Shown piece by piece: positions 4,730 to 33,300 of a DNA stretch of 64,000 nucleotides. A program made the position numbers and the translations under genes. The notes below the pieces were generated by a model. That model did no database searches. It was not told where the DNA came from and saw only the letters and a list, made by a program, of their open reading frames with translations. Origin of the DNA: a virus; IMG/VR virus record IMGVR_UViG_3300031339_000004, positions 13,437-77,436 of that record, one strand, 5' to 3'. The first letter of the stretch is position 1. Each line of letters starts with the position of its first letter.

Positions 4730-4948
4730 TTGCCTATGAGCGTTGGTGAGATCCTTTTAGAAGTCACCAAGTACGATAACGAACAAAAAGAAATGAAATC
4801 TGAGCTTTTAAAGATATGCTGGTATATGAGAGGAGGAGTTACCTATGAGGAAGCTCATTATCTAACATACGAAGATAAGCTTCTCATAGGAGACATTGTT
4901 AAAGATAATTTGGAAACCACACGTAAAACGGGGCTTCCATTTTACTAA
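4730..4948 (+). CDS. Small gp51-like hub assembly protein, or the -1 frameshift extension of the upstream gene
   Basis: 72-aa ORF directly after the gp26-like gene, in the -1 frame. ATG at 4736 has a possible AAGGA RBS. Confidence 0.55.
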   Translation: MPMSVGEILLEVTKYDNEQKEMKSELLKICWYMRGGVTYEEAHYLTYEDKLLIGDIVKDNLETTRKTGLPFY

Positions 4949-5634
4949 ACTACGCTAACACCAATAAGTTTGTTGGTACTTTCAACAAGGTGGATCCTTA
5001 ATCCTAAGTCACTCCACCTTAAATTATTTTCACGTAGCATCCTGGACAATTCAAGATATGTACTTTGTGTTAAGAATCGTTCTCCTGCTTTAGCATTTGC
5101 TATCCAAGCCTGTTGCTGTCTAGTAACATCTACTCCTGCGCTAGCAAATCTTAAGATTTTCTCTGCTGCCCACACACCATGCTCTTTGCTGCCTTTAGAT
5201 AACTGTGTTAATGCGCGGTTAATTACAACAGCAGTGTTACGAGGCATAGGTTTTTGCCCACCCTGTACTTTTCTAATATCTGATTTTGCTTTTGCATAGG
5301 TATCAGACTGGGCAGCATTCCTGGGATTGTTAGGAGGAGTGCCAGCAGGCGTAGGTGCATTCCCTGCTGGAGGATTTCCTGCTGCTGGCGTAGGAGTAGG
5401 TGGGTTTTCAGCTGGTGGGGTTCCGGCTGGCGTAGGTCTTGTACGACGCTGAGGTGTCCTCTTCTTGTTAGACGATTTACCTTTACTTTTATTTCCAGTA
5501 TACCCGGCCTTAAATCCCTTACCAAAGTCAGCAATGCCCTTTCCAACAGACTTAGCTGCCTTTCCCAGAGTCTTACCTACGCTATCAGAGTCTAGCTCAT
5601 CAAGCTGTGTTTTATTAATTTCTTGTATTTTCAT
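4945..5634 (-). CDS. Hypothetical basic, Pro-rich late protein (possible internal head protein)
   Basis: 229-aa ORF with TAAATA at 5666-5671 (-); N-terminus MKIQEI...LDE; PAGTPP/PAGNPP-type repeats. Confidence 0.6.
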   Translation of the reverse strand: MKIQEINKTQLDELDSDSVGKTLGKAAKSVGKGIADFGKGFKAGYTGNKSKGKSSNKKRTPQRRTRPTPAGTPPAENPPTPTPAAGNPPAGNAPTPAGTPPNNPRNAAQSDTYAKAKSDIRKVQGGQKPMPRNTAVVINRALTQLSKGSKEHGVWAAEKILRFASAGVDVTRQQQAWIANAKAGERFLTQSTYLELSRMLRENNLRWSDLGLRIHLVESTNKLIGVSVV

Positions 5635-5769
5635 ATGAGAATAAATCCAAATAGTTATATAAATGTATTTATGTTAAGAAATGAGCTAAGCTCATTAGTT
5701 TTCGCTTTACGCTCAAACTATTAGTTTCTTAAATTAATAATAGTATTTTATAAGTGATTTGAATTATTG

Positions 5770-6160
5770 TTACTAGATATTCATGTAGATTGCTCTGGTC
5801 AGACGGAACCTGTTTAAAGGTTCCGTCTGTCTAATGAATTTACTTCATGTGAGTATTTCCAGCCAAGACATATTGGAAGCAGGTATTTGTTCACTCCACG
5901 GGCTCTGACCTTTCCCAACCTACGTCGATATAGCATTATAAAATGCCGCCTGTACTTTCGTTCCTAGATGTACAGTTTTTAGGAGTGTGCGATTTACTTG
6001 AACGCCAACAAACGTTCTATGCCAATACTTAACTCGCTTGCCTTTTCAGCTACGACGATGTCTCTCGAAGGGGAGTGTCTCAGCATGTCTCGTGTCCGGG
6101 TACCAGCCGGCTGTTTCACAGCAGTATTATAGTCCGGCCTGCTAGCCTTGTGTGTTGTTT
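5770..6160 (-). ncRNA. Candidate structured non-coding RNA (family unassigned; strand inferred from flanking genes; could instead be a cis element or origin)
   Basis: No ORF >=60 aa in 5635-6282. The core is visibly GC-richer than its AT-rich flanks and has many inverted repeats, including a perfect 12-bp stem at 5800-5811/5818-5829. Confidence 0.45.
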
Positions 6161-6282
6161 TGATGCCTAAGTGTGTATTACTTCTTGCGCTGTTCGCAAC
6201 AACTAAGAAATAATCTTTGCCTGAAGATGCCTATGTTTGTGATTTGTTATTTTAGAAATAAGATGAAGATGTAAATGCTTGC

Positions 6283-6717
6283 CTATTTTAATTTTTTGTT
6301 TTCTATTAGCGACTGTCTTAATTTTTCTGATCCGCCTACTCGAACATTGATAATACCGTTGTAATATTCGTCAGTTTCGAGTACCTTGCGATCAAATTGC
6401 TCTTTTGCTTCAATGTAGGACATTTCTGATCTTGATTTACAAAAATAAAGTACTTCTCGAGTAAATTGTTCTTGTCCTAGTGCCTCTACGTCAGCGTTTA
6501 ATTTATCTGAAGAACCCCAATAGGTCCTCCAGTCGCTTTCTTTATAGCCTCTGCGTTTATTTTTTTTGCCTTTAAGTGGCGGCTTAGTAGTTTTAAACCT
6601 AGCCAACTTTTTGCCTATATATTTTTTGTTGGACTGAAGATTGGTAATGAGATACACAAATCCTTCATACTCGTCTGGTATCTCATCAATGTTTACGCCT
6701 TCATAGGTCCAATGCAT
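6283..6717 (-). CDS. GIY-YIG family endonuclease (Seg-like, catalytic domain only)
   Basis: GFVYLITN...KKYIGKK motif, conserved Glu in YIEAKEQF, terminal YYNGII. Confidence 0.8.
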   Translation of the reverse strand: MHWTYEGVNIDEIPDEYEGFVYLITNLQSNKKYIGKKLARFKTTKPPLKGKKNKRRGYKESDWRTYWGSSDKLNADVEALGQEQFTREVLYFCKSRSEMSYIEAKEQFDRKVLETDEYYNGIINVRVGGSEKLRQSLIENKKLK

Positions 6718-6742
6718 ACAGTTATATATCTATTACAGAGCA

Positions 6743-6994
6743 TCACTGCTGAGGTTTTGACTTAAAAACTTCTGGATGTACCTCTTGAAACTGCGCTCTT
6801 ACTTCTGTGTTTCGTTGATGTGTGATTTTTTTTATTTTACGAAGCCGCTGTTGGAGATCGTAGTACCTACGGTGGGTTCTCATTGCTTCCCACCGTTCCA
6901 TTGAAGCAAAATAGTCTAGATATGCCTGTACCAGTTGTTGATGCAGGCTATCGTCAGGGTCTAATTCTTTTTCAAACCTTTCGTCGTCGGTCAT
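6743..6994 (-). CDS. Hypothetical helical protein (83 aa)
   Basis: ATGA overlap with the gp46 stop, consistent with translational coupling. Confidence 0.65.
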   Translation of the reverse strand: MTDDERFEKELDPDDSLHQQLVQAYLDYFASMERWEAMRTHRRYYDLQQRLRKIKKITHQRNTEVRAQFQEVHPEVFKSKPQQ

Positions 6995-8988
6995 TGAGAT
7001 GACTCCACTACATCTAAATCGTTCGCGTAAGTAGTAAATCCGTTTTCTTTAATAACTTTAAGAACATGATTAACTCGACCGATTAGTTCGTCCTTGTGAC
7101 TGATCAAAAAGATATTTTTTTCTCGTTCTCTGGCCATCTTCTTGAGTACGCTTAACGAACTCTCAACTCCTGCTGTGTCCATGCCGCTGTCTATGAGCTC
7201 ATCAATGAACAGCAGGTTAACATTCTGATACAGACTCTCCCAAACGTCCCGGAAAGCAAAGCTAAGACCTAGTATAAGCCTGTTTCGTTCGCCTCGTGAC
7301 AAGTTGTCAAAGTCAAGGTCTTGGCCTAATTGGGAGATCTCAACCGATAAGTCGTTTTGAAACTCAACTTGGTGAGGTAAACCTAGTTTGTCCAAGTAAT
7401 GTGTAAGTCTGTTGTTCAAATACGCAAGGTTCTGGTCTATAATCTTTTTTCGTATGAAACTATCCTTGTTTGTAAGCAGCTTGAGAAGAAACTCTTGGTG
7501 CTCTCTGACGTTTGTTAGCTCGTTTACTGGCAGCCAGTTGATTTCTTGCAGTGCTGACGTCTGCAGGTCCGACACTTGCGCTTCGTAAGGATCTTCATCC
7601 TCTTGTCTTGCTGTCAGTGTGTTCTTTAGATTCTCAACGTTGCTTCTATGCTCGTATGCTTCCTTTGCACTGTCGTAGAATGTGTTGGGCTTACCGTTAA
7701 GCTCACCGATCTCTTCGATACCAGTCATTACCTTCTTTAGCTTATCTGCTACTTCTTTTTGGTAGCTAGTAGCATCAGCTAGTTCTTTTTCTTTAACCTT
7801 CTGGATCTCATCCTTCTTATCTGCGTGTAATTCTTGACCGCAAGTATAACAAGTGGCATCGTCTAGTTTAGAAATGTTCTTTTTTACTTTAGTTACAGCA
7901 GTATCTGCCCGTAATAGTGCAGTATCTAGTGTGCTCCTTTCCTTGTTGAGTGCAGTAACAGCAGTATTCATCTTTGACCAGTGTTGTAACTTCTCGTGGT
8001 CGTCGAGCTCTGACTCAATATTAAGCTTTTCTAATTGATCAATGCCTTCTTGAAGCCTTTTATTGTCTTGTTTCTTTTTTGACTGCCATGCACGTTGTCT
8101 GCTGACTAATGTGGCTATACTTTGCTCAATTTTGCCGTTTGCTGTCTTAATTGCGTCTATTTTTAGTGTTTCTTCAGTAATAGAGTCTTTGGTCATGCGC
8201 ACTTGTTCTTTTAACAACATGGCCTTTTCGGTGAGTATAGTAATACCCAACAACTGTTCAATGATAGCTCGTTGATCATTAGCTCTCATTGATAAGAACG
8301 GTTCGGTATAGGTGTTGAGAGCAACAATATGCTTGAACATGTCATGACTCATGCCTAGTAGGTCATTAATTGTCTCTTGCGTCTTGCGACTGTCACCTTG
8401 GGACTCATCTGTCATGTCTTGTTCTGCATCATCTACATAAAACTTAAGAATGTTGGGGCTTCTGCCTCTTTCTATTCTATAGTCTACGTTATTCTTCTTA
8501 AAATGCAGAGTGACCAACATGTTTTTACTGTTGGTCTTATTAATAAGGTTATTCTTCTTAATATTAGTTAACGCTTGGCCGTACAGCGCATAGCTGAGCG
8601 CGTTGATCACTGTGGTATTATGAGATAAGATATTGTTTGAGTAAAAACGATGATCAGGGTGATCAACTGTTAGATCAAACATATTTTCTTGCCGAGACTG
8701 TTCGATTACTGTTAATACTAATTCAGAACCGTGCTTAGATATTATCTTAGTCTGGTTAGGTATTATATCTTTGACAAAGATCTCGTTGTAGTTGTGATCA
8801 AACAAGATGTGAGTGTCGGCACAGTCAAGAGTCAACCCGCTTTGGGTTTCGATATGCCAAACGGTGTATGGAATAGTCTTGTGTATGTCAGTAACAGGCT
8901 GCCATCCAGAATCTGTTTCGATTTCAAGATCAACTAAGCTGACACTATTAACAAATTTTCTATTTACTGTTTGAGAAATTGTAGACAT
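6991..8988 (-). CDS. gp46: gp46/SbcC/Rad50-like recombination ATPase, C-terminal fragment: 124-aa split-intein C-part fused to a 541-aa C-extein
   Basis: Zinc hook CYTCGQ, signature LSRGE, Walker B LLFIDE, H-loop ISH. Residues 1-124 end in ...MFDLTV...FYSNNILSHN, followed by TTVINAL. Confidence 0.93.
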   Translation of the reverse strand: MSTISQTVNRKFVNSVSLVDLEIETDSGWQPVTDIHKTIPYTVWHIETQSGLTLDCADTHILFDHNYNEIFVKDIIPNQTKIISKHGSELVLTVIEQSRQENMFDLTVDHPDHRFYSNNILSHNTTVINALSYALYGQALTNIKKNNLINKTNSKNMLVTLHFKKNNVDYRIERGRSPNILKFYVDDAEQDMTDESQGDSRKTQETINDLLGMSHDMFKHIVALNTYTEPFLSMRANDQRAIIEQLLGITILTEKAMLLKEQVRMTKDSITEETLKIDAIKTANGKIEQSIATLVSRQRAWQSKKKQDNKRLQEGIDQLEKLNIESELDDHEKLQHWSKMNTAVTALNKERSTLDTALLRADTAVTKVKKNISKLDDATCYTCGQELHADKKDEIQKVKEKELADATSYQKEVADKLKKVMTGIEEIGELNGKPNTFYDSAKEAYEHRSNVENLKNTLTARQEDEDPYEAQVSDLQTSALQEINWLPVNELTNVREHQEFLLKLLTNKDSFIRKKIIDQNLAYLNNRLTHYLDKLGLPHQVEFQNDLSVEISQLGQDLDFDNLSRGERNRLILGLSFAFRDVWESLYQNVNLLFIDELIDSGMDTAGVESSLSVLKKMAREREKNIFLISHKDELIGRVNHVLKVIKENGFTTYANDLDVVESSQ
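8617..8988 (-). mobile_element. Split intein C-fragment (IntC, 124 aa)
   Basis: Block B-like LDCADTH, block F MFDLTV, block G SHN, then +1 Thr at 8614-8616. Confidence 0.92.
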
Positions 8989-10070
8989 TTCTTTAATACT
9001 TCCTCTTTGTTTTGTTTATACTCATTTTCCCATATAACTAGTACGTCGTACCCTTGGGCTTCTGCAAATTGAATTTTTTCTCGGTCCAGTTTCCATTTTT
9101 CTGATGCTCGCAGTTTAGTTCTTGGATTCACATACTCCGGAGAATAAATTTTAGGATTACAATGCCAAAAGTCTCCATTGTATTCAATTATTTTATTAGC
9201 AACTGCTATGTCATAGACGTATTGTTTTTTAGAATTGATTGCTAGAGTAAGCTGATCTATAATTAGCAAACTTTTATCAATTTTTCTGATTTCGTATATT
9301 ATTTCTCTTTCAGCGGCAGATACCGATACCCCTTTTGTAAGTTTAAGTCTATTCATTTCGGCTTTTTCTTCATCTGATTTAGCATTTAATGCGGCTTGCC
9401 ATTTATCTTGACGTAGTTGCCAAACTCTAATTCCTTCCTCTTTTCCGTATTTTTCAATACATATCTTCTTAGAAAAGTGTAGTTGTTCTTTAGATACTAA
9501 TTTAGTTGCTTCTTCTTTAGTATATCCTCTGGCAGTATAGTATTCTGTACACCGCTTTGATGACACTCGACGAACAGGAGTAGCAGCTGAACCTACTGAA
9601 CCTTTTTTATTGTTTGCTGTTTTGGTATCAGCTGCGAACTGGATTGCTTCTGTTTCACAATAGCCTTTCTTTATCCAATATTCTTTTCTAATGGGCCGTC
9701 GACTATTTCTTTCAAAGTCTGCTTCCTCTATAGTATAGTGTTTATTTGTAGCAGGATTACTTTTGTTTAACCAAAACTCTCGACTGTATACGCTTGTTGT
9801 GTTTTTTTGTGCGTGTTCCTTTGATTTTGTGTAAACCATGTTGGTATCCCACCCTCGACACTCCCAATAATTTCTAGAACGTTTTGTATAGCGCCCAGAA
9901 ATTTTCAAGGTACTTCTAATAAAAATCTCAATTTCTTTTTTGGTATTGTTAACATTATCCAACACCATGCTTTCTAGGAGAGACGATCGCATCGCCGGTT
10001 CTAGATTTTTGATAACTGTATCTATTACTTCGATACAGTTTTCTGTTAGTGTGTTATTCCATCGCGCCAT
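8964..10070 (-). mobile_element. Free-standing homing endonuclease (Vsr-like/DUF559-type C-terminal nuclease) between the split-intein halves
   Basis: YDI...IIEYNGDFWH...D..K...A...GY.VLVIWE motif; repeated (E)Y(W/Y)xxxG(Y/W) units upstream; overlaps both gp46 fragments (17 and 25 nt). Confidence 0.85.
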
Positions 10071-10308
10071 TGTATAATTCTCCTATTGTAGTTTCGTAAA
10101 TTACCCCAGTTTTGGTGTTTTTTACTTTTACAATAGTATTTATACAAAGGCACTTACCTGTGCCGTTGCGCGATCCGCTGTCATCACCACCTTGGTCTAG
10201 GTTTTCACCAAGAACCAGCGTTAGTTGCTCTCTACTGAAGTCTATGGCCTGTGAAACATTGCCTACACTCATGAAATTCTTAACTGTTAAATCCTGAACC
10301 TGTATCAT
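10054..10308 (-). CDS. gp46: gp46 N-terminal fragment: 52-aa N-extein ending in Walker A GTGK, plus 32-aa split-intein N-part
   Basis: VKNFMSVGN and G.N....NGTGK are typical of the SbcC/gp46 N-terminus; followed by CLCINTIVKV (intein block A); lies directly after gp47. Confidence 0.92.
   Translation of the reverse strand: MIQVQDLTVKNFMSVGNVSQAIDFSREQLTLVLGENLDQGGDDSGSRNGTGKCLCINTIVKVKNTKTGVIYETTIGELYNGAME
10057..10152 (-). mobile_element. Split intein N-fragment (IntN, 32 aa)
   Basis: CLCINTIVKVKNTKTGVIYETTIGELYNGAME: Cys1, block A and the I.ELY motif. Confidence 0.9.
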
Positions 10309-10309
10309 A

Positions 10310-11317
10310 TCATTCTAATCCGTTGTAAATATCTAATAACATCTTTTTATCGTAGTTGTTAGTGTCTAGTTCGGTAATTTCCTTAGCAACAATCTGATCT
10401 ACACTTTCAAATGCCCGGATGTCTAAGTCTGTGGACATTTCGTCTATTTGCTTTTGAGGAATCAATGTAATTTCTCTACATCCATATTGATTGATGAATG
10501 TTTCTTTGATAAAACTTGCTTCTTCATAGCTAATAGGTAGATCCAGTGTTACTCGAAGATACATTTTACTCTTAATTAAGGTATCTGCTTCATCAATTAG
10601 CTGTGAGAGCTTAACTGTTCGATATTTTGGACATTCTGGCCAATTGATAAATTCTGGCTCTCCGTTTTTCTCTAATATCATCATACCACGAGCATCGTCC
10701 CATGCATCAGCATAGTTATGTGGGAATGCATTGCCGATATAGTGTATCTTTCCTTGTGTTTGACGTTTATGAAAGTGACCTGAGAACACATAGTCCTGGT
10801 TCTTAAAGTTTTTAGCTTTAAGTTCACCGTGGTCTGGCATCTGTACCATAGCATTCATGTAAAAGTGTGGTAATTCAAAGTGTCCGAACATGTACTTGGC
10901 TTTGATCTTTTGAATTTTCTTCCACTCGTCACCTACTAGCCACGGAATAAGAGCTACGTCGTCTTTTTCAAGAATTGAGTCAACAAAGGTAATGCCGGGA
11001 ATGTGCCGACCAAAGCTCATTGAGCTAACGTCTCTCTTATCTTTGTAATATAGATCATGATTACCTACAAACAGATAAAAGTTGTCAAATGCTGCCCCTA
11101 GCTTCTCCAAACTACGTATAGTTGCGTCCATTGTAGTGAGGTTTAACGAATTTCGGTTGTGATGCCAGTCTCCACAAAAGATTCCAGTTTCACAACCGTT
11201 GGCTTTTGCAGTTTCGATGAACCAGTCAACGAAATTCTCACAATCTTGGTTGTGTACTCGACTATTACCCTTGAGCCCAAAGTGAATATCTGTAAAAACT
11301 GCTGCTTTATTGAACAA
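10310..11317 (-). CDS. gp47: gp47/SbcD/Mre11-like recombination nuclease
   Basis: Metallophosphoesterase motifs DIHFG, GD, GNHD, GHF, SGHFH; position between gp55 and gp46 as in T4. Confidence 0.93.
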   Translation of the reverse strand: MFNKAAVFTDIHFGLKGNSRVHNQDCENFVDWFIETAKANGCETGIFCGDWHHNRNSLNLTTMDATIRSLEKLGAAFDNFYLFVGNHDLYYKDKRDVSSMSFGRHIPGITFVDSILEKDDVALIPWLVGDEWKKIQKIKAKYMFGHFELPHFYMNAMVQMPDHGELKAKNFKNQDYVFSGHFHKRQTQGKIHYIGNAFPHNYADAWDDARGMMILEKNGEPEFINWPECPKYRTVKLSQLIDEADTLIKSKMYLRVTLDLPISYEEASFIKETFINQYGCREITLIPQKQIDEMSTDLDIRAFESVDQIVAKEITELDTNNYDKKMLLDIYNGLE

Positions 11318-24302: not shown

Positions 24303-27300
24303 ATGGCTTCTAACGATAGTCAAAACGAAAGCCCACTTCCGACGCCGGGTAATAACAAGCGTACAGCAGCAGATCTTCTACCTAGATTCTTTAGGACAGA
24401 AGCTAACAAAAAATTTCTGCAAGGCACAATTGATCAGCTAATTCAGCCTGGAGTAGCTGAAAAGCTTAACGGGTTTCTTGGCCGTAAGACTGCCAAGGCC
24501 TATAAGAGTACTGACAATTACATCAGTGATGTAAGTGTTGATAGAGGTAATTATCAACTAGAACCAGTAGCTGTTATTAAGGATAATCTAGATAACGTCA
24601 CTTTTTATAAAGATTATAACGATTACCTTGGCTCGCTAAGATATTTTGGGGCAAACACAGATAACGCAAGTCGTTTAAATTCACAAGACACTTACGCTTG
24701 GGCTCCTCATATTGATTACGATAAGTTTGTTAACTTTCGTGAGTACTATTGGCTACCTAATGGACCTTTATCTATTCAAGTATCAGGCGAGCAGCGCGAC
24801 GTTGTAAGCACCTACTCAGTTACAACTGTAAACGACGGTGACAATGTTGCCTATGTGTTTAATGACACTGCAACAAGAAATCCAACTCTAAAACTTTATA
24901 GAGGTCAGACCTACAGATTTGAAATTGATACTCCTGGATATCCACTAGCATTTTCTGTTAACAGAATATTTGATGATTCGGTAAATGTATCTACTTTCTT
25001 TCCAGACGGCGTGCGTAAATTAGACGACAGCGGACAAGAAGTATCTACTGCGTATATCGAGAAAGGTACAATTGAATTTACAGTACCATATAATGCAGCA
25101 GAACGAGTCTTCTATCTAAGTAAAAATAGTATCGACACTAGCGGACTTTTCCGAATTTACGACATAGAAAGCAATACCTTTCTTGATGTTGCTGACGATA
25201 TACTAGGCAAGAAAACGTATCAAACAGCAACCGGGCTAGCCCTAAGTAACGGTATGAAGCTAACTTTTGTTGGAAACATAACTCCGGCAAACTACGCTGA
25301 CTCAGCATGGTACGTTGAGGGAGTGGGCACCAATATAAAATTAATTAACGAAGCTGACTTAGTTATACCTGCGGCCTACTCTACTAACAAGTTAATTCCC
25401 TACGACTCTGATCAGTTTGACAGGTTTCCGTTCGCTAATGCTAGTTCGTATGCTAAATCAAAAGACTACATATTAAGCAACAGAGCAAGTAAAGACCGTA
25501 ATGCGTGGTCACGATATAACAGATGGTTCCATAAAGCTGTTATTACTGCCGGCTTTGAGCAAGCCGACCTTCCCGTAAATATCGATGAAGAAACTAGAGC
25601 AAAACGTCCTATTATTGAATTTGAAGCAGGACTAAAGCTGTATTCTTTTGGAACAGAAGCTAAAGCTGACGTTACGCTGATTGACGATTTCACAAAAGAT
25701 GTGTTTTCTACTATTGAAGGCCAGCTGGGATACAACGTAGATAATGTTGATCTAACAGAGGGCATGCGAGTATTATTTACAGCAGATACTGACATTCTTG
25801 TAAATGGTAAGATTTATGAAGTTAATTTTATTAATGTTAGTAACCAACGACAAATTAGTTTAGTCGAGGTAGAGGACAGTGAACCTAAGGAAAATGAAAC
25901 TGTACTAGTAACACAAGGCAAAGTAAATGCCGGCGTAAGTTTTTATTACGACAACACGTGGAAGCAAGGCCAACTAAAAGAAACGTTAAACCAAGCGCCA
26001 CTTTTTGATTTGTGTGATTGTCAGTTTGGCAATAATTTAGAAAGTCAAGAGTTTTATGACAGTTCTACATTTAACGGAACTAAACTTTTTAGTTATAGGC
26101 AAGGATTGGGATCTAATGATTTAGAGCTAGGCTTTCCTTTAACATACAGAAATATTGAAAACTCAGGTGACATACTATTTGACTTTAATCTTCTTAGTGA
26201 TAAATTTACATATCAGATAGATGAAGAAGTAACTGAAGTAACTACTGACAGTGCTCTGCTAAGAAAGTATTCAGCAAGAACCAGCTTCGAATGGCTTAAC
26301 GGATGGTCCAAGACTCCGGTTAAATCCAAGCAGTATGTGATTAGACAATATGAAGTTACTAATATCGAAAACAACAACTTTCGTATTGATGTATACAAGG
26401 ATTCTGGATTACTGAATGATTTAACAACCATTGTGTACGTAAACAACAAATTACAGCTTATTAACGTTGACTACGAAATTAACAGAATTAATAAAGTAGC
26501 AATAGTGCAATTTGATAAGAACCTACTAAACGGTGATATTGTACAAATAAAAACAGACTCAAAAACTGTTAAGAATAATAATGGCTATTATGAGTTTCCA
26601 CATAACCTAGAAAGAAATCCGTTAAACCAGGATATCAAAGACTTCACGCTAGGTGAAGTTATAGCTCATGTTGATTCGTTGATTGAAGAAGTTCCTAGTT
26701 TTGCAGGTGCGTTTCCTGGTCCTGGAAACCTAAGAGACTTAGGAGACGTTGCTAGATTTGGAAAGAAATTTGTAAAGCATTCAGGATCGATTAACTTTCC
26801 ATTATATCACACGACTAGCAAGGAATACAACATTGTTAAGGCGTTGCGATACAGTCGCGACGAGTATGCAAAGTTCAAAAGAATATTCTTAGAAACAGCA
26901 ACTACTCTAGGGTTCGACGGCAACACTCTAATGCACGTTGACAAGATACTAGAGCGTGTCAACAAAGATAAGATCAAGACTCAGCCGTTTTACTTCTCGG
27001 ATATGATAGCTTACGGCCCTAACAATGTTATAGAATATCAAGTGTTAGATTCAAGAACAGAACTATACGCATTAAATAATGCATTTAATCTTTCAACTCT
27101 TTCTGCAAGAAGTGTGCTGGTTTACTTAAACGGCAAGCAATTAATTGTAGGATCGCATTATACATTTAATCCTCAAGGATTTGTTGTTGTTACTGCTGGG
27201 CAGCAGGAAGGAGATATTCTTGAGCTGATCGAATATGAAGTTACAGACGGATCATTTATTGCACCAACACCCAGCAAGCTAGGACTTTACCCTAAGTTTT

Positions 27301-30300
27301 CACCAGAGCTAACAATCGATGACACATATCAAACATCAGCGCCGGTTAATCCTGGCCCGTATAAGGTCTACGGCGAGCAAGATATTGTCAGTACAAATGA
27401 CGTTCGCGGCTGGTTTTACCCTGTGTATACTACTAAGAGCGCAGCAAAGGCAGCAGATCAAGTCGCAGGGGGTTCGGGTCAAATATCAACAGTTAGATTT
27501 AAAGGTCTGACCGAATCACTTTACATAGCAAACAGTGCGACTAATATTTTAGGAGGACAAGACAACGTTGAGATAGACACATACCCAGTGGGCATTCCTT
27601 TTATTAGAGGACACGACGGAAGCTATGTTCGAGCCTACTTAGATTTTAGAGACGAGTTGTTGCTTGACCTCGAAAAACGCATTTTTAATAATATTAAAGT
27701 ACAGTGGACTGAAGACGTAATTGATATAGACGGATTCTTCGGTGGCGATTTTAGACCGTCGGAGTTTAGCTCAGCAGAAATTAATAAAAGTTTGTCACCT
27801 GAGTTTACTCATTGGCTTAAATTAGTAGACAACGACTACACTGATAATTTCTTCTATGATAGAACTAATGAGTTTACCTACAACTATTCTAATGCAAATA
27901 ATCTAGCAGATGAAGACCTACCAGGATTTTGGCGAGCTGTTTATAAGCAGGCATTTGACACCGACAGACCGCATAGTCATCCTTGGGAAATGTTAGGATT
28001 TAGAATTAAGCCGTTGTGGTGGAACGAATCTTACGGTTCAGCACCTTACACAGGTGATAACCTCAACATGTGGCGCGACCTTGAACAGGGTATTGTACGC
28101 GAACCTGGCAAGGAAATTATATTTCTTACCAAATATGCAAGACCTGGTTTGGTAAATTTTATTCCGTCAGACCAAAAAGGAAAGTTAAAATCACCACTAG
28201 CGTCTAGCTATGTTAAGAACTTTATTTTAAGATTAAGCACGCAGAGTTTTAAGTTTGGCGACCAATCTCCTGTCGAAACCGCGTGGAGAAGAAGTCCACA
28301 ATATCCATTCTCTGTAGTAACTGCCATGCTGTTAAACCAACCTTCTAAAGTATTTGGGGCCGGGTACGATGTTAGCAGAATTAAAACTAACCTGGTAGGA
28401 CAGCGTGTTTATACAGAAACCAACAAGTTTATGTCTAACACGGGTGTAGTATTCCCAAATACTTCTCAGGATAGTAGCAGAGTATTAACTAGCGGCTTTG
28501 TAAATTACATTTATAATTTAGTAGCAGGTGATATACTTTCTGTATATTCCGATTATCAATTACAGTTTTTAGAATTAAGAAATCAGCTAGGATTTAAACT
28601 AGCAGGCTTTAGTGATAAGTCTAAAATTAACCTAGTGTTGGAAAGTACAACTCCGCGAATAGACGCACAAGCTGGAGTATTTGTTCCTCAGGAGAACTAC
28701 GAAGTAGTCTTCAATACCAGCTCACCTGTTGATTTTGTAGTATATAGTGGCGTTGCTATTGAAAAAACAGCAGGCGGATTCTTGCTACGAGGGTACAATA
28801 ACGATGTACCTTTCTTAGACTACTATCCTCCTAAGTTAGGCACTTCGGGCGTAGACATTACTATAGGTGGAATATCAGAAATTCCGTCTAATTGGGTAGC
28901 TGACACTCAATTTTACGAAGGCCAAGTAATAGAGCACAACAACGCTTATTATAGAGCTACTGTAAGATTTCGGTCACAAGAAGTGTTTTCTACAGATAAT
29001 TTAGCCAAGTTACCTAAGCTTCCTGTGACCGGCGGTAAGTCAGCAAACTTCAAAAAGAACTTCGACGACAGAACTGTTTTATCTCTACAATACGGCGAAA
29101 GATTAGACTCGTCACAAGAAGTAATAGATTTCTTGCTAGGATACGGAAAAAGACTAGAAGATCTAGGATTTGATTTCAACTATACCGAAGCCGAGATTGT
29201 TAATAACTGGAGCCAAGCAGCAAAAGAATTCTTGTTTTGGTCTACACAGGGTTGGGCAGCAGGAACAGCTATTACAATTTCACCGGCTGCTAACAAGGTA
29301 GAGTTCAAAAGAGAATTCGCAGTAGTAGACAATATTTTTGATAACTTTTACTCATACAGCTTATTAAAAGCAGATGGTCTTGCTTTATTAAGCGAATATA
29401 GCAGCTTGTTACGAGACCAAAGTAGTTTCGGAATACAAACAGTAAACACTGATGACGGTTTGTATTCAGTAGCACTTGCGTTAGTACAAAAAGAACACGT
29501 AGTAGTAATAGACAATCGAACAATATTTAATGATATAATCTATGAACCGGCTACTGGTTATAGAAGAGATCGTATTAAGATAGTAGGCTACCGTTCAGAT
29601 GATTGGAACGGTGGGCTAAACATTCCTGGTTTTGTTTACGATGGCGCAGTTATGTTAGAATGGGCTAGTTGGAAAGATTTTCAAATTGGTAGCTTGGTTA
29701 AGTACAAGCAATTCTATTACGTAGCTATTGAAAACGTACCGGGTTCAAAAGAATTTAATACTAGCCTTTGGTATAGATTAAGTAAGAAGCCAGAAGCAGA
29801 ACTAATCACTAACTTTGATTATAGAATTAATCAGTTTACTGACTTTTATGATCTTGATACAGACGGATTTGATGCCGAGCTACAAAGAATGGCACAACAT
29901 CTAACTGGCTATCAAAAGAGACAGTACCTAGCAAACATCATTACTGATGACGTTTCTCAGTACAAGTTTTATCAAGGCATGATTCAGGACAAAGGTACTA
30001 AAAATGCATTGTCTAAAATGTTCGAAAAACTAGGTGCAGCAGGCAAAGAAAGCTTAGAGTTCTTTGAAGAATGGGCCATACAAGTTGGTAGATATGGTGC
30101 GATTGATAACACAAGTCAAATTGAGATCAATTTGAAACAAGACCAAATACGGATTTCTCCGCAGCCTATTGAATTAACAGATGACATTCCTCTAAGTAAT
30201 TTGGAAAAAGTCTACAGAATAAAATCTTTTGAGCTGTATGATAAGCCTGCTAACTATACTGGAGCACCGTTCTTTACCAAGCCGTTAGTTAACGAGTATG

Positions 30301-33300
30301 TGAGAACTGCTGGCTACGTAGACGAAAACGACGTAACCTTTATTGCTGGCTCTACAGAAGATCTTAGAAATGGCAATGTAGATGACGTTGCACTAGGTGA
30401 ATACATCTGGATTACCGAAATACTTGACCGACCATGGGATGTTTATCAGCACGTAACAACTGGGATAAAGGTTAGTAAATTACTTGATAATAAGGAAACT
30501 AACAAGTTTGGTGACTCCTTACGAGAGTTGACGTTGGATCGATACACAACTAATCGCATTTTAGTTGGCGATATTATAGGAGTAAGAGACACTCGAACAT
30601 TAGGAGTTAATGGATTCTACGAAGTTGATAGTATTGACCTGATTAAGTTAAACGTTATTAACATTCGTGTACCGACCGATGCAGCATTTGAAACATTTGC
30701 TGATGAAAATTTTCAGTTAACCTTGCTGCGTTCAGTTAGACTAAACAATCTTTTAGAACTACAGGATGTTGTACAAGATACACTATACCAAGACCAAACA
30801 GCATGGATTGATAATTACAATGGCGATTGGGCTGTTCTAAATAACTCCAGCGTATATACTAACGAGCAGGCACTTACTAATCCTGTTCAAGAAGAAGGTA
30901 TTGAACACAAATACGGTAACGAGGTATTGGTTACTGCTGATAACAACAACGTGTTTGTAACGGCTCCAGAAGTAGAAAACGGAAAAGTATACTACTATAG
31001 ACGGTCGTCAGAAAGTTTTAATGTGCAACTAGATCAGGAAATAAGCTTTGCCCAGCAAGGACTAATGACCTCCTTTGCTAACGGGTTTGCGTCTTCAGTA
31101 AGTGTGTCGCCAGACGGTGAATATTTAATCGCCGGATTACCTCAGGCATCTGGCGTTAAAACTAGGTTTCAAGGGCTGTTTGACCCAGACGCTACTTACA
31201 CAAAAAATCAAATTGTTAAGTTTAGAGAAAGCTTGTGGAGAGCCAACAGAACAATTTTTCCTCAAATTTCCACTCAGCCGTTCTCGACCTTTAGCTCGTA
31301 CAACAACATTATAGGCTCGTTTGATGATAATGACCAACTTGCTGCACTGATAATAGCAGGCGATTCGCAACTGGCAAATAATGTTACTAATCACATATTA
31401 GTACGTGCGCCTAAAGAAATGTACCAAGGAACAACAGTTGGCGATAAAGTTAACTTGTTCTGGAATGCTCGCAGTTACTCTTATCCTACACTGGATTTTT
31501 ACGAGCCATTTGACGGACTTATACCGGAAATCTCTTCTAGCTTTTTGAACCAAGAGCATATTATTAAGGAAAAGATAGACCATGTCTTTTATGTTGAGTT
31601 ATATACTGCACTGCCGTCAGTAAACGACAGAGTAACTACTGACACCGGCCAAGCAACTGTTTATTATGTTAGCACCAGTAGAGACGGAGTCATCATTTAC
31701 CTAAAAGAATCAAACGGTACATTTGAAACATCTGGCCAGCTGTTTATAGACAATCAGGATTTAATTGGCGTTTACACTGAAGAAGATACAGTTAGTACTA
31801 ATGATGCAGTAACAGGATTTTGGTATATTGAAACCCCTACTGATTATTCTAATAATGGTGTTTATTATGATGCAGGTAAGGGATTAGTTTATGCCGATGT
31901 CAGGATAGAGAACGAGACGCGTGAGGTCAACGATTACTACAATATACAGCTAACAGCAGGCGTTATAGGCAATGATTTTGATGATCGAAATCAAGCTAGT
32001 TTTGTTGCTCAACTATCCTTTACTGGTGATTTAACTTCGGCTGATGGGCAGGTTGGCCCCGAAGTCAGTGTACCCAGCAGTCAATGGTTAGTTAGGACAG
32101 GTAAAGTATTCAGTGATACGCTAGTATCCGGTGATCAACTTCAACTTAGCCTATTCGAATCTAACGAGCGAATTATTAACTTTGCTCCTAGCGGGCTAAC
32201 TGGAGGCTATTCAACATTCAACAAATTACAAACAATAGTAGACATGTGGGATGGTTATATTGACTTTAATTTTACTAGGTTTGACGCACAGGGATTTGTG
32301 TTTCAACCTCAAATAGGCGATGTTTTAGAAGATTTACAGATGCCGCGTAATGGCCAAGGTGGACTTGCAATTACCGGAATAACCACTAGCAGTGCCGAAG
32401 TTACATGGGTACAACGAAACTTTAACCAAGTCAGAGTCTATGTAAAAAACATAACCGGAACATGGGACCAGCTAAACAACATAGGCCGTTACAATGTTAA
32501 AAGAAACCGCAACACTGCTATAAGAGGTCAAGCAGATGTTGATCGAATTATTGGTGTCGTTGAAGATTCCGATAATGATATCTGTGTAGGTAATGACCTA
32601 ATAGGTAAGTTAATAGTATTTGAAGCAGACGAAATTTTTGCAGATAGCAGAAAGTGGAATGAAATTATTCCAATAACTGGCGAAGAATATTGGTTCTATA
32701 CAGAAAATATAGCACAGGGAGCGGGCCGAGTACCTAATCCGCCCTTCAGTCTAAACAAGGATTACGTTCAAATATACCATATAGAAGCAGACAACTTCGG
32801 AACAGCTGGACCAGTAAACGAAGGTGCTGTAGCAATATACCGAAGACTAACTGGCGGCACCTACAGCTATCAGCGTACTATTGTGTCAGAATACGGAATG
32901 GAAGATAGGCAGTTTGGCAGAGATGTAGAAATTAGGCAAGTAGGCAACTATTATACTTTGTTTGTATCTAGTATAGGCAATGGTGCCCAACAAGAGTTAG
33001 TAGGCGGCATTGAAATCTTTAGGCATGGCGCACTGGCGGGCGAAAACTTCAAGGGAAATTATGCACCGGGCACTTACATAAAAGGAGATATAGTTACCTT
33101 CGAAGACGATTACTATGTTGCTAATAAAGATCAAACCGAAGTAGAAAGTAGGATTAAAGATTCAATATTTTGGGCTAACATCAGTTGGAAGCAAGGAAAA
33201 GATTCAAACTACAGAGGAGAATGGAATAACAGCTATGGTTATGCAGAGGGTTCTATTGTTTTTTATAATGATAAATTCTATAGCGCTGTTACTAACATAT

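What the first reader, a model, noticed from the sequence alone, without database searches (positions are those of the whole stretch)
5770..6160. Candidate large structured non-coding RNA directly downstream of a GIY-YIG nuclease
Seen: this is the only long non-coding stretch (5635-6282) in an otherwise packed 64 kb. Its core is GC-richer than the flanks and full of stems: CAGACGGAACCT/AGGTTCCGTCTG (5800-5829, 12 bp perfect, enclosed by ATTCAT/ATGAAT and TAGA/TCTA), TTCCA/TGGAA (5857-5878), GCATT/AATGC (5933-5946), CTGTAC/GTACAG (5950-5975), GAACG/CGTTC (6000-6017), GCTGT/ACAGC (6110-6122), GCCGG/CCGGC (6106-6138). I do not recognise tRNA, tmRNA, RNase P or group II domain V signatures. Inference: an unclassified phage RNA of roughly 400 nt, possibly working with the co-oriented nuclease, which has only a catalytic domain and no obvious DNA-binding extension. 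A replication origin is the main alternative.
Basis: partly seen in the sequence, partly recalled or inferred. Interest (0 to 1): 0.72.

Follow-up and report, generated by a model that had tools for sequence, protein, structure and literature searches.

The report
Knotted twin-box RNA of marine phages
The gene-free stretch behind a small nuclease gene of this uncultured marine T4-like phage encodes a real, multiply knotted non-coding RNA of about 400-500 bases from an uncatalogued family; it carries one 7-letter word twice, the two copies always mutate together, and its job is unknown (possibly starting DNA copying).

Summary
Window 5635-6282 is the only long ORF-free gap. On the minus strand it encodes a conserved structured RNA: core 5780-6158, with 3' modules reaching about 5680.

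- **Distribution:** 130 of 136 related IMG/VR loci carry it.
- **Structure:** on 82 distinct copies, 74 modelled pairs in 16 helices are 94.7% paired (35-45% when slid). 38 pairs show two-sided changes. There are two covariation-supported pseudoknots.
- **Strand:** G-U cells outnumber A-C cells 533 to 68.
- **Known families:** no Rfam, tRNA or tmRNA match.
- **Nuclease link:** the RNA is not the GIY-YIG nuclease's obligate partner. 26 of 74 close orthologues lack any RNA, and five loci of unrelated phages carry the whole RNA without that gene.
- **Sister RNAs:** other RNAs at the same site share its 3' module, and one of them starts with the Rfam motif Polynucleobacter-1. This RNA does not.
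- **Twin words:** ACAUGAA occurs at 5844-5850 and 5780-5786, flanking the 12-bp hairpin. The word changed at least 11 times in the family, with both copies identical in 80 of 82. No complementary partner was found in cis.

Best guess, inferred only: as in ColE1 RNA II, the upstream word pairs with template DNA under the downstream word and seeds an R-loop in the AT-rich tract that follows. This scan has found the same RNA superfamily before on other DNA.

The parts
6283..6717 (-). SegE-like GIY-YIG nuclease gene (144 aa, catalytic domain only). Fixed upstream neighbour in the T4-like clade; not shown to be a partner.
   Evidence: Pfam PF19835 1.1e-33, residues 3-123. Upstream and co-oriented in nearly all T4-like loci.
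6159..6282 (-). Spacer between the nuclease stop codon and the RNA. It holds four AGGCA words (6280, 6228, 6218, 6164). Most of it is absent in relatives, where the RNA starts at or within about 100-300 nt of the stop.
5998..6158 (-). 5' domain. P1 6153-6158::6005-6010 is a pseudoknot into the loop of P8 6013-6017::6000-6004. Other helices: P2 6139-6143::6120-6124, P3 6117-6119::6092-6094, P4, P5 6078-6086::6019-6027, P6 6071-6075::6062-6066, P7.
   Evidence: Covariation counts and coordinates. A covariance model of this domain also finds the outgroup copies.
5879..5990 (-). Core. P9 5982-5986::5893-5897 (6 of 6 pairs covary) crosses P12 5918-5923::5879-5884, forming the second pseudoknot. P10 5971-5975::5950-5954 has the conserved loop AGGAACGAA. 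P11 is a variable hairpin at 5930-5949. P13 5914-5917::5899-5902 closes the invariant 11-nt loop AAAGGUCAGAG (5903-5913).
   Evidence: The 17-mer GGGAAAGGTCAGARCCC recovered at least 120 IMG/VR contigs.
5844..5850 (-). Twin word R1 (ACAUGAA), preceded by ACUC.
5802..5827 (-). The 3' strand GGUUCCGUCUGA is nearly invariant. The 5' strand follows it through G-U pairs.
5780..5786 (-). Twin word R2 (ACAUGAA), preceded by AAUCU, which is the 3' strand of P16.
5721..5779 (-). AT-rich tract directly behind R2. Family mean G+C is 19-30% over the first 60 nt or so, against 43% in the RNA body. In the window it also holds one sigma-70-like match (5773 to 5745).
5695..5720 (-). M3 hairpin. A covarying 6-bp stem closes GAGCG-NNA-GCGA (tandem G-A, 2 bp, GNNA loop). 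It is shared by all RNA types found at this site.
   Evidence: 89 distinct instances; 80 have at least 5 of 6 stem pairs; 33 stem types. Coordinates.
5680..5696 (-). Palindromic hairpin with flanking T runs; probable two-way terminator and 3' end of the RNA unit.
5666..5673 (-). CATAAATA, one mismatch from the T4 late-promoter consensus TATAAATA, placed ahead of the 229-aa gene. This is an inference from established T4 knowledge.
   Evidence: Similar words follow the RNA in relatives.

Best explanation
Shown: window 5680-6158 (minus strand) is a gene for a large, multiply pseudoknotted non-coding RNA. It is read in the same direction as the GIY-YIG gene ahead of it, and in relatives there is little or no spacer for a promoter of its own. 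It is type I of a modular superfamily. Members have different ornate 5' parts joined to a shared 3' module: word, G+C-rich hairpin, same word again, AT-rich tract, M3 hairpin, terminator. The RNA is inherited as a unit and also occurs in unrelated phages without the nuclease, so it works on its own.

Inferred mechanism: the two identical 7-nt words evolve like the two strands of an ordinary helix, with two-site compensatory change and no third site. This is what is expected if the upstream RNA word R1 pairs with the complement of R2, that is, the template DNA strand under R2. That is how the upstream rG stretch of ColE1 RNA II pairs with the dC stretch of the template near the origin. The P15/P16 hairpin would bring R1 next to R2. 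The hybrid would anchor the transcript and let an R-loop persist in the AT-rich tract just downstream, which could prime leading-strand DNA synthesis as at T4 oriF and oriG. The conserved knotted body would hold the RNA in the shape needed for this, or bind a factor.

My odds: about 0.95 that this is a real RNA of a new family; about 0.5 for register-shifted self-pairing of the words; about 0.3 for replication priming as the purpose. The confidence value given for this explanation refers to the whole statement, mechanism included.
For: - **Conservation:** found in 130 loci.
- **Structure:** 74 pairs, 94.7% paired, 38 pairs with two-sided change, 0 of 500 shuffles reaching the observed value, and slid controls at 35-45%.
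- **Strand:** 533 G-U cells against 68 A-C cells.
- **Twin words:** each variable R1 column has its highest mutual information with the same R2 column. On a tree built without the word columns, the word changed at least 11-13 times, yet the two copies are identical in 80 of 82 distinct RNAs.
- **No cis partner:** there is no 7-nt complement at any consistent place in the loci. An RNA's own word finds no better complement in it than words swapped in from other RNAs (6.25 against 6.17 of 7).
- **Twin words elsewhere:** they also flank a different hairpin in sister RNA types (AGAUGAU, AGAUAAU, GAAUAAU) and in the outgroup (ACAGAAA; AUCAUCAAGU).
- **AT-rich tract:** 19-30% G+C behind R2 in 84 copies.
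- **Copy number:** single copy in the 77-kb contig.
- **Independence from neighbours:**
- **Precedent:** the rG/dC interaction of ColE1 RNA II and the T4 oriF/oriG R-loops, as summarised in PMC4412123. That the ColE1 rG stretch lies far upstream in a loop is from my own memory of Masukata and Tomizawa 1990.
Against: - No strand-skew switch at the element; the switch near 12 kb follows gene direction. This is weak evidence for T4-like phages.
- About a third of sister phages with the same nuclease gene have no RNA at this site and must start replication otherwise.
- A 30-nt invariant core, three or more tertiary pairings and the conserved M3 hairpin downstream of the supposed hybrid site look like more than an R-loop needs. 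They point to a protein or RNA partner, or to catalysis.
- Thermodynamic folding does not show the words to be specially unpaired (0.50 against 0.46 for the segment).
- 7 bp is a short hybrid.
- No transcript ends, RNase H site or DNA start are known.
- T4's own R-loop origins need no structured RNA.
Confidence: 0.33

Rival explanations
1. A trans-acting ornate RNA, either an RNP scaffold or a decoy/sponge. The conserved knotted body binds a conserved protein or forms an assembly. The two words each bind one copy of an unknown complementary nucleic acid encoded elsewhere in the phage or the host.
For: Invariant single-stranded loops (AAAGGUCAGAG, AGGAACGAA, UAAAAAC) and three or more tertiary pairings suggest a precise 3D fold. 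A terminator-bounded unit and a conserved M3 hairpin suggest a discrete RNA product. The RNA travels between unrelated phages as a whole. GOLLD and ROOL are precedents for large phage RNAs of unknown function.
Against: A third, unlinked partner would need three coordinated changes at each of at least 11 word switches. No partner was seen in up to 14 kb of any locus, nor above chance in the 64-kb window. A host partner should hold the word constant among phages of one host.
Confidence: 0.3
2. A self-processing RNA or ribozyme. The same active site, or a host enzyme guided by structure, cuts or joins at both words. This would release or circularise the hairpin unit of about 50-70 nt and restore one intact word in each product.
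For: Identical words with sharp 7-nt limits flank a compact hairpin in every type. The pseudoknotted core with invariant loops is ribozyme-like in style.
Against: No match to any ribozyme family in Rfam, even at E = 10. No internal guide complementary to the word. Unit length is 49-68 nt with no conserved reading frame or length class. Recognition by a fixed active site would not make the words vary.
Confidence: 0.1
3. A cis-acting end-of-operon element. It would be a 3' UTR that stabilises or insulates the early transcript at the early/late module border, or that stops convergent late transcription.
For: It always lies at the end of the early gp46-GIY unit, before a late-promoter-like word, and often faces the convergent baseplate genes. 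The hairpin at 5680-5696 reads as a terminator on both strands.
Against: Some 400 nt of knotted, highly conserved RNA is far more than termination or protection needs. It does not explain the twin words. The RNA keeps its form behind unrelated genes in the outgroup.
Confidence: 0.12
4. A guide or cofactor RNA of the adjacent GIY-YIG nuclease. This would be an RNA-guided or RNA-regulated homing system.
For: Fixed adjacency and co-orientation in the T4-like clade. RNA type mostly follows the nuclease tree, with 12 changes against 37 when shuffled. Weinberg et al. 2010 noted the same gene family upstream of Polynucleobacter-1 RNAs. The nuclease lacks a DNA-binding domain.
Against: The two are separable both ways: 26 of 74 close orthologues have no RNA, isolates have the gene but no RNA, and the complete RNA occurs without the gene. 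The clustering on the tree is what plain synteny gives. The only variable segment is 7 nt, which is too short to guide.
Confidence: 0.05
5. Not an RNA gene at all: a decayed protein gene, or a purely DNA-level element.
For: The single-sequence fold energy is unremarkable.
Against: No ORF in any relative. Conservation is not three-periodic, and indels are not in threes. There are 546 compensatory cells, and G-U pairs are tolerated on one strand only.
Confidence: 0.01

Closest known systems
Polynucleobacter-1 RNA motif (Rfam RF01718; Weinberg et al. 2010, PMC2864571)
   Same: Same genomic niche, directly behind the same small GIY-YIG gene family. The paper's Additional file describes this as 'downstream of GOS11034 genes, possible homology to PSSM2_218'. 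In locus L222 a strong RF01718 match (99.7 bits) is followed by more structure and by the same twin-word, M3 and terminator module as here.
   Different: The window's RNA has no RF01718 match even at E = 10. A covariance model of its own 5' domain does not find RF01718-bearing loci. RF01718 describes only about 140 nt, the first third of a sister type. The core, the pseudoknots and the twin words are uncatalogued.
GOLLD (RF01998) and ROOL (RF03087), large ornate RNAs of phages and prophages
   Same: They are hundreds of nucleotides long, heavily structured, phage-borne and of unknown function.
   Different: No sequence or structure match. They have no twin words. This RNA is not near tRNAs.
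ColE1 RNA II primer and the T4 oriF/oriG R-loop origins
   Same: In ColE1, a long folded transcript has an upstream segment that pairs with template DNA close to the start site, so the RNA carries the same word twice. An easily melted tract lies downstream, and there is one copy per replicon.
   Different: No sequence relation. The hybrid word is 7 nt of mixed sequence, not a G run. No origin activity, RNase H site or skew switch has been shown. T4 origins use an unstructured transcript.
OMEGA guide RNAs (omega RNA/HEARO of IscB and TnpB)
   Same: A large structured RNA lies next to a small nuclease gene on a mobile genome.
   Different: No Rfam HEARO hit. The nuclease is GIY-YIG and is separable from the RNA both ways. 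There is no long variable guide.
DRT2 reverse-transcriptase ncRNA (template bounded by short repeats for template jumping)
   Same: Short direct repeats bracket a structured unit, which would allow register-shifted re-pairing. I recalled this while reading 10.64898/2026.09.22.753630.
   Different: No reverse transcriptase in the contig. Unit length shows no multiple-of-three bias, and there is no conserved open circular frame.

Membership tests
Structured non-coding RNA (generic) | Base pairs kept through compensatory changes, on one strand | tested here: met
   74 pairs, 94.7% paired against 35-45% when slid; 38 pairs with two-sided change; 0 of 500 shuffles reach the observed value. G-U cells 533 against A-C cells 68.
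Polynucleobacter-1 (RF01718) | Match to the Rfam covariance model at or near its gathering score | tested here: not met
   No hit in the window at gathering score, nor at E up to 10 in 5500-6900, nor in 11 other type-I loci at E up to 5. A positive control exists: L222 scores 99.7 bits.
Polynucleobacter-1 (RF01718) | 5' domain homologous to the motif (reciprocal search) | tested here: not met
   Model R1, built from the type-I 5' domain, finds outgroup type-I copies (46.8 and 25.8 bits). It finds nothing in RF01718-bearing or type II/III loci at E up to 1 with filters off.
Polynucleobacter-1 (RF01718) | Position downstream of the GOS11034 / PSSM2_218-like gene family | tested here: met
   The GIY-YIG gene lies directly upstream. 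Its relatives in cyanophages are annotated 'NAD synthetase'. I did not check directly that PSSM2_218 equals this family.
Twin-box RNA superfamily (working name of this scan, unpublished) | The same word of 7 nt or more twice, flanking a G+C-rich hairpin, followed by an AT-rich tract, the M3 hairpin and a terminator | tested here: met
   Window R1 5844-5850 and R2 5780-5786, M3 5695-5720, terminator 5680-5696.
Group I intron | Match to the Rfam group I intron model, and a host gene split into two exons | tested here: not met
   No hit at E up to 10. The upstream ORF ends before the element, and the downstream genes differ between loci. The P9/P12 pseudoknot only recalls the P3/P7 arrangement of group I introns.
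tmRNA (including the two-piece forms reported from related phages) | tRNA-like domain and tag reading frame | tested here: not met
   ARAGORN finds none in the 64 kb. No Rfam tmRNA hit. That Melnitz encodes a two-piece tmRNA is from my memory of its description, not checked here.
GOLLD / ROOL / HEARO / OLE / raiA large RNAs | Match to the family's covariance model | tested here: not met
Guide RNA of an RNA-guided nuclease (OMEGA-like) | Obligate co-occurrence of the RNA with its nuclease gene | tested here: not met
   26 of 74 orthologues lack the RNA. The RNA occurs without the gene in L054, L063 and L180-L182.
RNA-primed (R-loop) replication origin, ColE1 RNA II type | An upstream RNA segment identical to the RNA encoded at the hybrid site, with the two coupled in evolution | tested here: met
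   Twin words: at least 11 concerted changes, identical in 80 of 82, and no other partner. This is compatible with the model, not proof of it.
RNA-primed (R-loop) replication origin, ColE1 RNA II type | An easily melted tract just downstream of the hybrid site | tested here: met
   G+C is 19-30% for about 60 nt after R2, against 43% in the RNA body and 37.5% in the loci. Window 5600-5799 is 24%.
RNA-primed (R-loop) replication origin, ColE1 RNA II type | Strand-composition switch at the origin | tested here: not met
   Cumulative GC skew turns near 12 kb, where gene direction changes, and not at 5.7-6.2 kb. This criterion is weak for T4-like phages.
RNA-primed (R-loop) replication origin, ColE1 RNA II type | A persistent RNA-DNA hybrid, RNase H processing and a DNA start at the site | not testable with these tools
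   Needs experiments.

The most novel reading that the evidence does not exclude
The RNA is a self-addressing origin module. A folded transcript uses a freely changeable 7-nt word, written twice in its own gene, to pair back onto its template DNA and found an R-loop that primes replication. Because address and target are both carried in one roughly 500-bp cassette, the module can move between unrelated phages and still work. This would make it a portable, RNA-defined replication origin, or a programmable R-loop maker used for another end such as recombination or packaging.
Probability: 0.25. Interest if true: 0.9.

Novelty: new variant of a known kind. Interest (0 to 1): 0.72.

Why it matters
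Large, intricately folded RNAs with no known job are rare, and each has been a source of new biology. This one is abundant: well over a hundred marine viral contigs from a truncated scan. It is absent from Rfam and from 50,697 sequenced phage isolates. It has at least two covariation-supported pseudoknots.

It also shows a kind of evolutionary coupling, between two identical direct words, that ordinary RNA structure does not explain. If the words pair with the RNA's own template DNA, this would be a ColE1-like RNA-primed origin in T4-like phages, carried as a portable cassette.

If the words instead bind a third molecule, they point to an unknown phage-host RNA interaction. Either way the twin words allow a clean compensatory-mutation experiment. 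The result also places the orphan Polynucleobacter-1 motif of 2010 as just the front end of one member of a much larger modular family.

Tried and rejected
- **Known RNA families:** Rfam at gathering and permissive thresholds on the window and on 19 related loci gave nothing for type I. No tRNA or tmRNA.
- **Sequenced phage isolates:** blastn of the gap against 50,697 records found no match.
- **Decayed gene:** no ORF in any relative.
- **Group I intron, RNase P, tmRNA, hairpin or hammerhead ribozyme, box C/D:** I considered these by eye from remembered consensus features. None fits, and none is supported by Rfam.
- **Cis partner for the words:** searches for exact and G-U-tolerant complements, mutual information, and an own-versus-swapped word test were all negative. 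In the 64-kb window the extended complement occurs 4 times against 3.2 expected.
- **Other readings of the words:** I checked them as tRNA anticodon-loop complements, start-site mimics, -10 promoter boxes, T4 primase primers (pppAC...) and gene-60-type take-off and landing sites. Each is contradicted by some word variants or by the lack of a conserved reading frame.
- **DRT2-like hidden circular ORF:** no multiple-of-three bias and no conserved open frame. No reverse transcriptase.
- **Bacterial genomes:** 38 exact 17-mer matches, about the chance number. Only 3 are real copies, all on MAG contigs that are probably viral.
- **Accessibility of the words:** thermodynamic folding was inconclusive.
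- **Protein upstream of the RNA in the outgroup phages:** no Pfam, PHROG or protein-atlas match, no similarity to the GIY-YIG protein, and a confident AlphaFold model (pLDDT 87.7) with only generic helical-bundle matches at Z up to 6. I therefore cannot say whether it is another nuclease.
- **Not used:** the metagenome-contig scan.

Full report
**What is there.** Window 5635-6282 lies between a 229-aa ORF (4945-5634, minus) and a 144-aa gene (6283-6717, minus). It holds no ORF longer than 44 aa. It is the only gap longer than about 300 nt in the ORF map of the 64 kb. The 144-aa protein is a SegE-type GIY-YIG catalytic domain (PF19835, 1.1e-33, residues 3-123). The window is part of a 77-kb IMG/VR contig of a T4-like phage: gp46/gp47 recombination nuclease genes lie upstream and a baseplate hub gene downstream. 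Rfam gives no match at gathering score over the whole window, and none of any sense at E up to 10 over 5500-6900. ARAGORN finds no tRNA or tmRNA. blastn against 50,697 phage records finds nothing.

**Conservation.**
- Loci fetched through the 229-aa protein carry the gap sequence at 87-89% identity in close relatives and 61-70% over about 500 nt in distant ones. There too it has no ORF.
- A profile of the element matches 130 of the 136 loci (E from 1e-27 to 1e-146).
- In 596 Gb of prokaryote genomes the 17-mer occurs 38 times, about the chance number. Only three are real copies, all on MAG contigs.

**Structure and strand.** I aligned 82 distinct full-length copies (A2) and tested a model of 74 pairs in 16 helices.
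- 94.7% of cells pair, against 35-45% when partners are slid by 1-3 columns.
- 38 pairs show changes on both sides.
- There are 546 compensatory cells, against 166 +/- 12 in shuffles, with 0 of 500 shuffles reaching the observed value.
- Two pseudoknots are supported by covariation. P1 (window 6153-6158 with 6005-6010) reaches into the loop of hairpin P8. P9 (5982-5986 with 5893-5897; all six pairs covary) crosses P12 (5918-5923 with 5879-5884).
- P13 closes an invariant 11-nt loop, AAAGGUCAGAG. Five bases of this loop could pair with the invariant UGAC(U/C) behind P15. That third knot cannot be tested because nothing in it varies.
- G-U cells outnumber A-C cells 533 to 68, so the RNA is the minus strand of the window, co-oriented with the nuclease gene.
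- The single-sequence fold energy is unremarkable (z = -1.1), so the case rests on comparison.

**Limits.** In many relatives the profile match begins at the nuclease stop codon, which leaves no room for a separate promoter. The window has an extra spacer of about 110 nt with four AGGCA words. Behind the second word come four features in order:
- an AT-rich tract;
- the M3 hairpin, whose 6-bp stem covaries (33 stem types; 80 of 89 instances have at least 5 of 6 pairs) around a GAGCG-NNA-GCGA loop;
- a palindromic terminator-like hairpin at 5680-5696;
- a late-promoter-like CATAAATA.

**The twin words.** ACAUGAA occurs at 5844-5850 (after ACUC) and again at 5780-5786 (after AAUCU), on either side of the P15/P16 hairpin.
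- Across the family the word varies: ACAUGAU, ACAUAAU, GCAUAAA, ACAGGAA, ACGUGAA, GUAUGAA and others. Positions 1-7 of the two copies stay the same.
- On a tree built without those columns, the word changed at least 11-13 times, and the copies are identical in 80 of 82 distinct RNAs. The two exceptions differ only at position 7.
- Each variable column of R1 has its highest mutual information with the same column of R2.
- No complement sits at any consistent place in the loci.
- An RNA's own word finds no better complement in it than a foreign word does (6.25 against 6.17 of 7).
- In the window the extended complement is at chance level.
- The R1-to-R2 unit is 49-68 nt, with no multiple-of-three bias and no conserved open circular frame. 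The contig has no reverse transcriptase.

**Relation to the nuclease.** In the T4-like clade the order is fixed: gp46, small ORF, GIY-YIG, RNA. The two are nevertheless separable.
- Of the 80 best GIY-YIG orthologues (70-84% identical), 74 could be classified. 28 are followed by this RNA (29 counting the window's own gene), 11 by a 'type II' RNA, 2 by an RNA that starts with Polynucleobacter-1, and 7 by other long gaps. 26 are followed by the next gene with no room for an RNA.
- RNA type clusters on the nuclease tree (12 changes against 37 when shuffled), as plain co-inheritance predicts.
- The isolates Melnitz (70% identical protein), P-HM1 and S-SRM01 have the gene without the RNA.
- Conversely, five loci from two distinct unrelated phages (L054; L063 and L180-L182) carry the complete RNA, twin words included. 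A covariance model of the 5' domain hits them at 46.8 and 25.8 bits. They have no GIY-YIG, gp46 or hub gene nearby.
- In those loci the RNA lies two ORFs ahead of a weak small-terminase-like protein (phrog_309, E 2e-4 and 1e-3).
- The protein just upstream of the RNA there has a confident but unmatched fold.

**A modular superfamily.** The sister RNAs behind the same gene have different 5' and core parts. They share the 3' module: ACUC-word, G+C-rich hairpin, AUCU-word, AT-rich hairpin, M3 and terminator. Their own twin words are AGAUGAU, AGAUAAU and GAAUAAU.
- In L222 the first 140 nt are a strong Polynucleobacter-1 match (RF01718, 99.7 bits).
- Weinberg et al. 2010 already noted that this motif lies downstream of a gene family related to cyanophage locus PSSM2_218, and that it was found in no purified phage.
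- The window's RNA lacks that motif in both directions of search.
- It is therefore a distinct, uncatalogued member of the wider family.

**How it may work.** The word pair behaves like an ordinary helix: two sites, frequent compensated switches. Yet the two sites are identical, not complementary. The simplest reading is that R1 in the RNA pairs with the complement of R2, the template DNA strand (or an antisense transcript) at R2. ColE1 RNA II does this: an rG stretch in the RNA must pair with a dC stretch of the template for the persistent hybrid that primes replication. T4 oriF and oriG are R-loop origins (PMC4412123).
- Points that fit: the hairpin between the words would bring them together; G+C falls to 19-30% for about 60 nt right after R2, against 43% in the RNA body; and the cassette works in unrelated phages.
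- Points against: there is no skew switch; a third of sister phages do without the RNA; the invariant knotted core and the M3 hairpin suggest another partner; and folding does not show the words to be specially exposed.
- I give register-shifted self-pairing about 0.5 and replication priming about 0.3.
- The main rival (0.3) is a trans-acting ornate RNA whose words bind an unknown third molecule. Self-processing (0.1), an end-of-operon element (0.12) and a nuclease guide (0.05) follow.

**Earlier notes of this scan.** I had already found the family and the twin words. The scan's index then showed that the same superfamily has been reported many times on other DNA. Those notes gave me the Polynucleobacter-1 lead, which I tested, and the idea that the RNA 'pairs back onto its own DNA', for which I add the ColE1 precedent and the two-site argument. 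A note that small phages without replication genes carry the RNA was not tested here. A note that the RNA almost always sits beside a small nuclease or ligase could not be confirmed for the outgroup.

**Verdict.** The RNA is real and well supported. It is uncatalogued for this type, is not the nuclease's guide, and its function is unknown. One unusual, experimentally tractable feature stands out: the twin words.

Noticed in passing
window 6991-10308 (minus strand): The gp46 (Rad50-like) gene is split in three. ORF 10054-10308 encodes the N-terminal P-loop piece ending ...GTGK, followed by a short intein start (CLCINT...). ORF 8964-10070 is a free-standing protein with a Vsr/DUF559-like nuclease end. 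ORF 6991-8988 starts with about 124 residues of intein ending SHN, followed by the rest of gp46. From memory, this looks like the 'fractured gene' arrangement (split intein plus homing endonuclease) of Dassa et al. 2009. gp47 lies at 10310-11317.
   Followed up: partly
window 24303-38402 (plus strand): A single ORF of 4699 aa among the structural genes. I did not examine it.
   Followed up: no
window 4945-5634 (minus strand); L006 2120-4489, L013 2420-4558, L015 1807-3774: The 229-aa protein behind the RNA matches only the C-terminal third of 655-789-aa proteins in relatives. It has no Pfam or PHROG match, and its middle is a low-complexity Pro/Thr/Ala/Gly-rich stretch.
   Followed up: no
L204 1936-2500, L200, L238 (type II); L231, L258, L211 (type III); L222 and L210 (Polynucleobacter-1 type); L219: At least three further large structured RNAs occupy the same slot behind the GIY-YIG gene. 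Types II and III share a 5' motif, GUUUGGUCG...CGAC..CCUUGAGG. All but type III show the twin-word module. Only the first 140 nt of one type is in Rfam.
   Followed up: partly
window 5695-5720 and 88 other instances in the loci: The M3 hairpin is a small motif in its own right. A freely covarying 6-bp stem sits on a tandem G-A internal loop, two G-C pairs and a GNNA tetraloop. Inside the loop, C4 covaries with G9 (GAGCG..AGCGA against GAGUG..AACGA).
   Followed up: partly
window 6164-6284; the same place in relatives: The word AGGCA (often UAGGCA or CAGGCA) is repeated 2-4 times just ahead of the RNA in several RNA types. It could mark a processing or start site, or a protein-binding site.
   Followed up: no
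L231 about 1960-2030: Three tandem copies of a 23-nt unit (CACAGACACCAAGTCAATTCAAG) lie between the GIY-YIG gene and a type III RNA.
   Followed up: no
L063 2163-2660 (minus strand); L054 5882-6382; proteins P0001-P0033: The protein encoded just ahead of the RNA in the outgroup phages belongs to a family of at least 33 clusters from marine samples. It has no Pfam domain. Its AlphaFold model is confident (pLDDT 87.7, pTM 0.82) and has no convincing match in the PDB.
   Followed up: partly
L142 (MAG contig JBDNIA010000124, Crocinitomicaceae); L174 and L178 (PBPT01, Neomarinimicrobiota MAG RS350): Three contigs filed under bacterial MAGs carry true copies of the RNA. They are probably phage contigs binned with bacteria. 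Two of them are 153 and 335 kb long.
   Followed up: no
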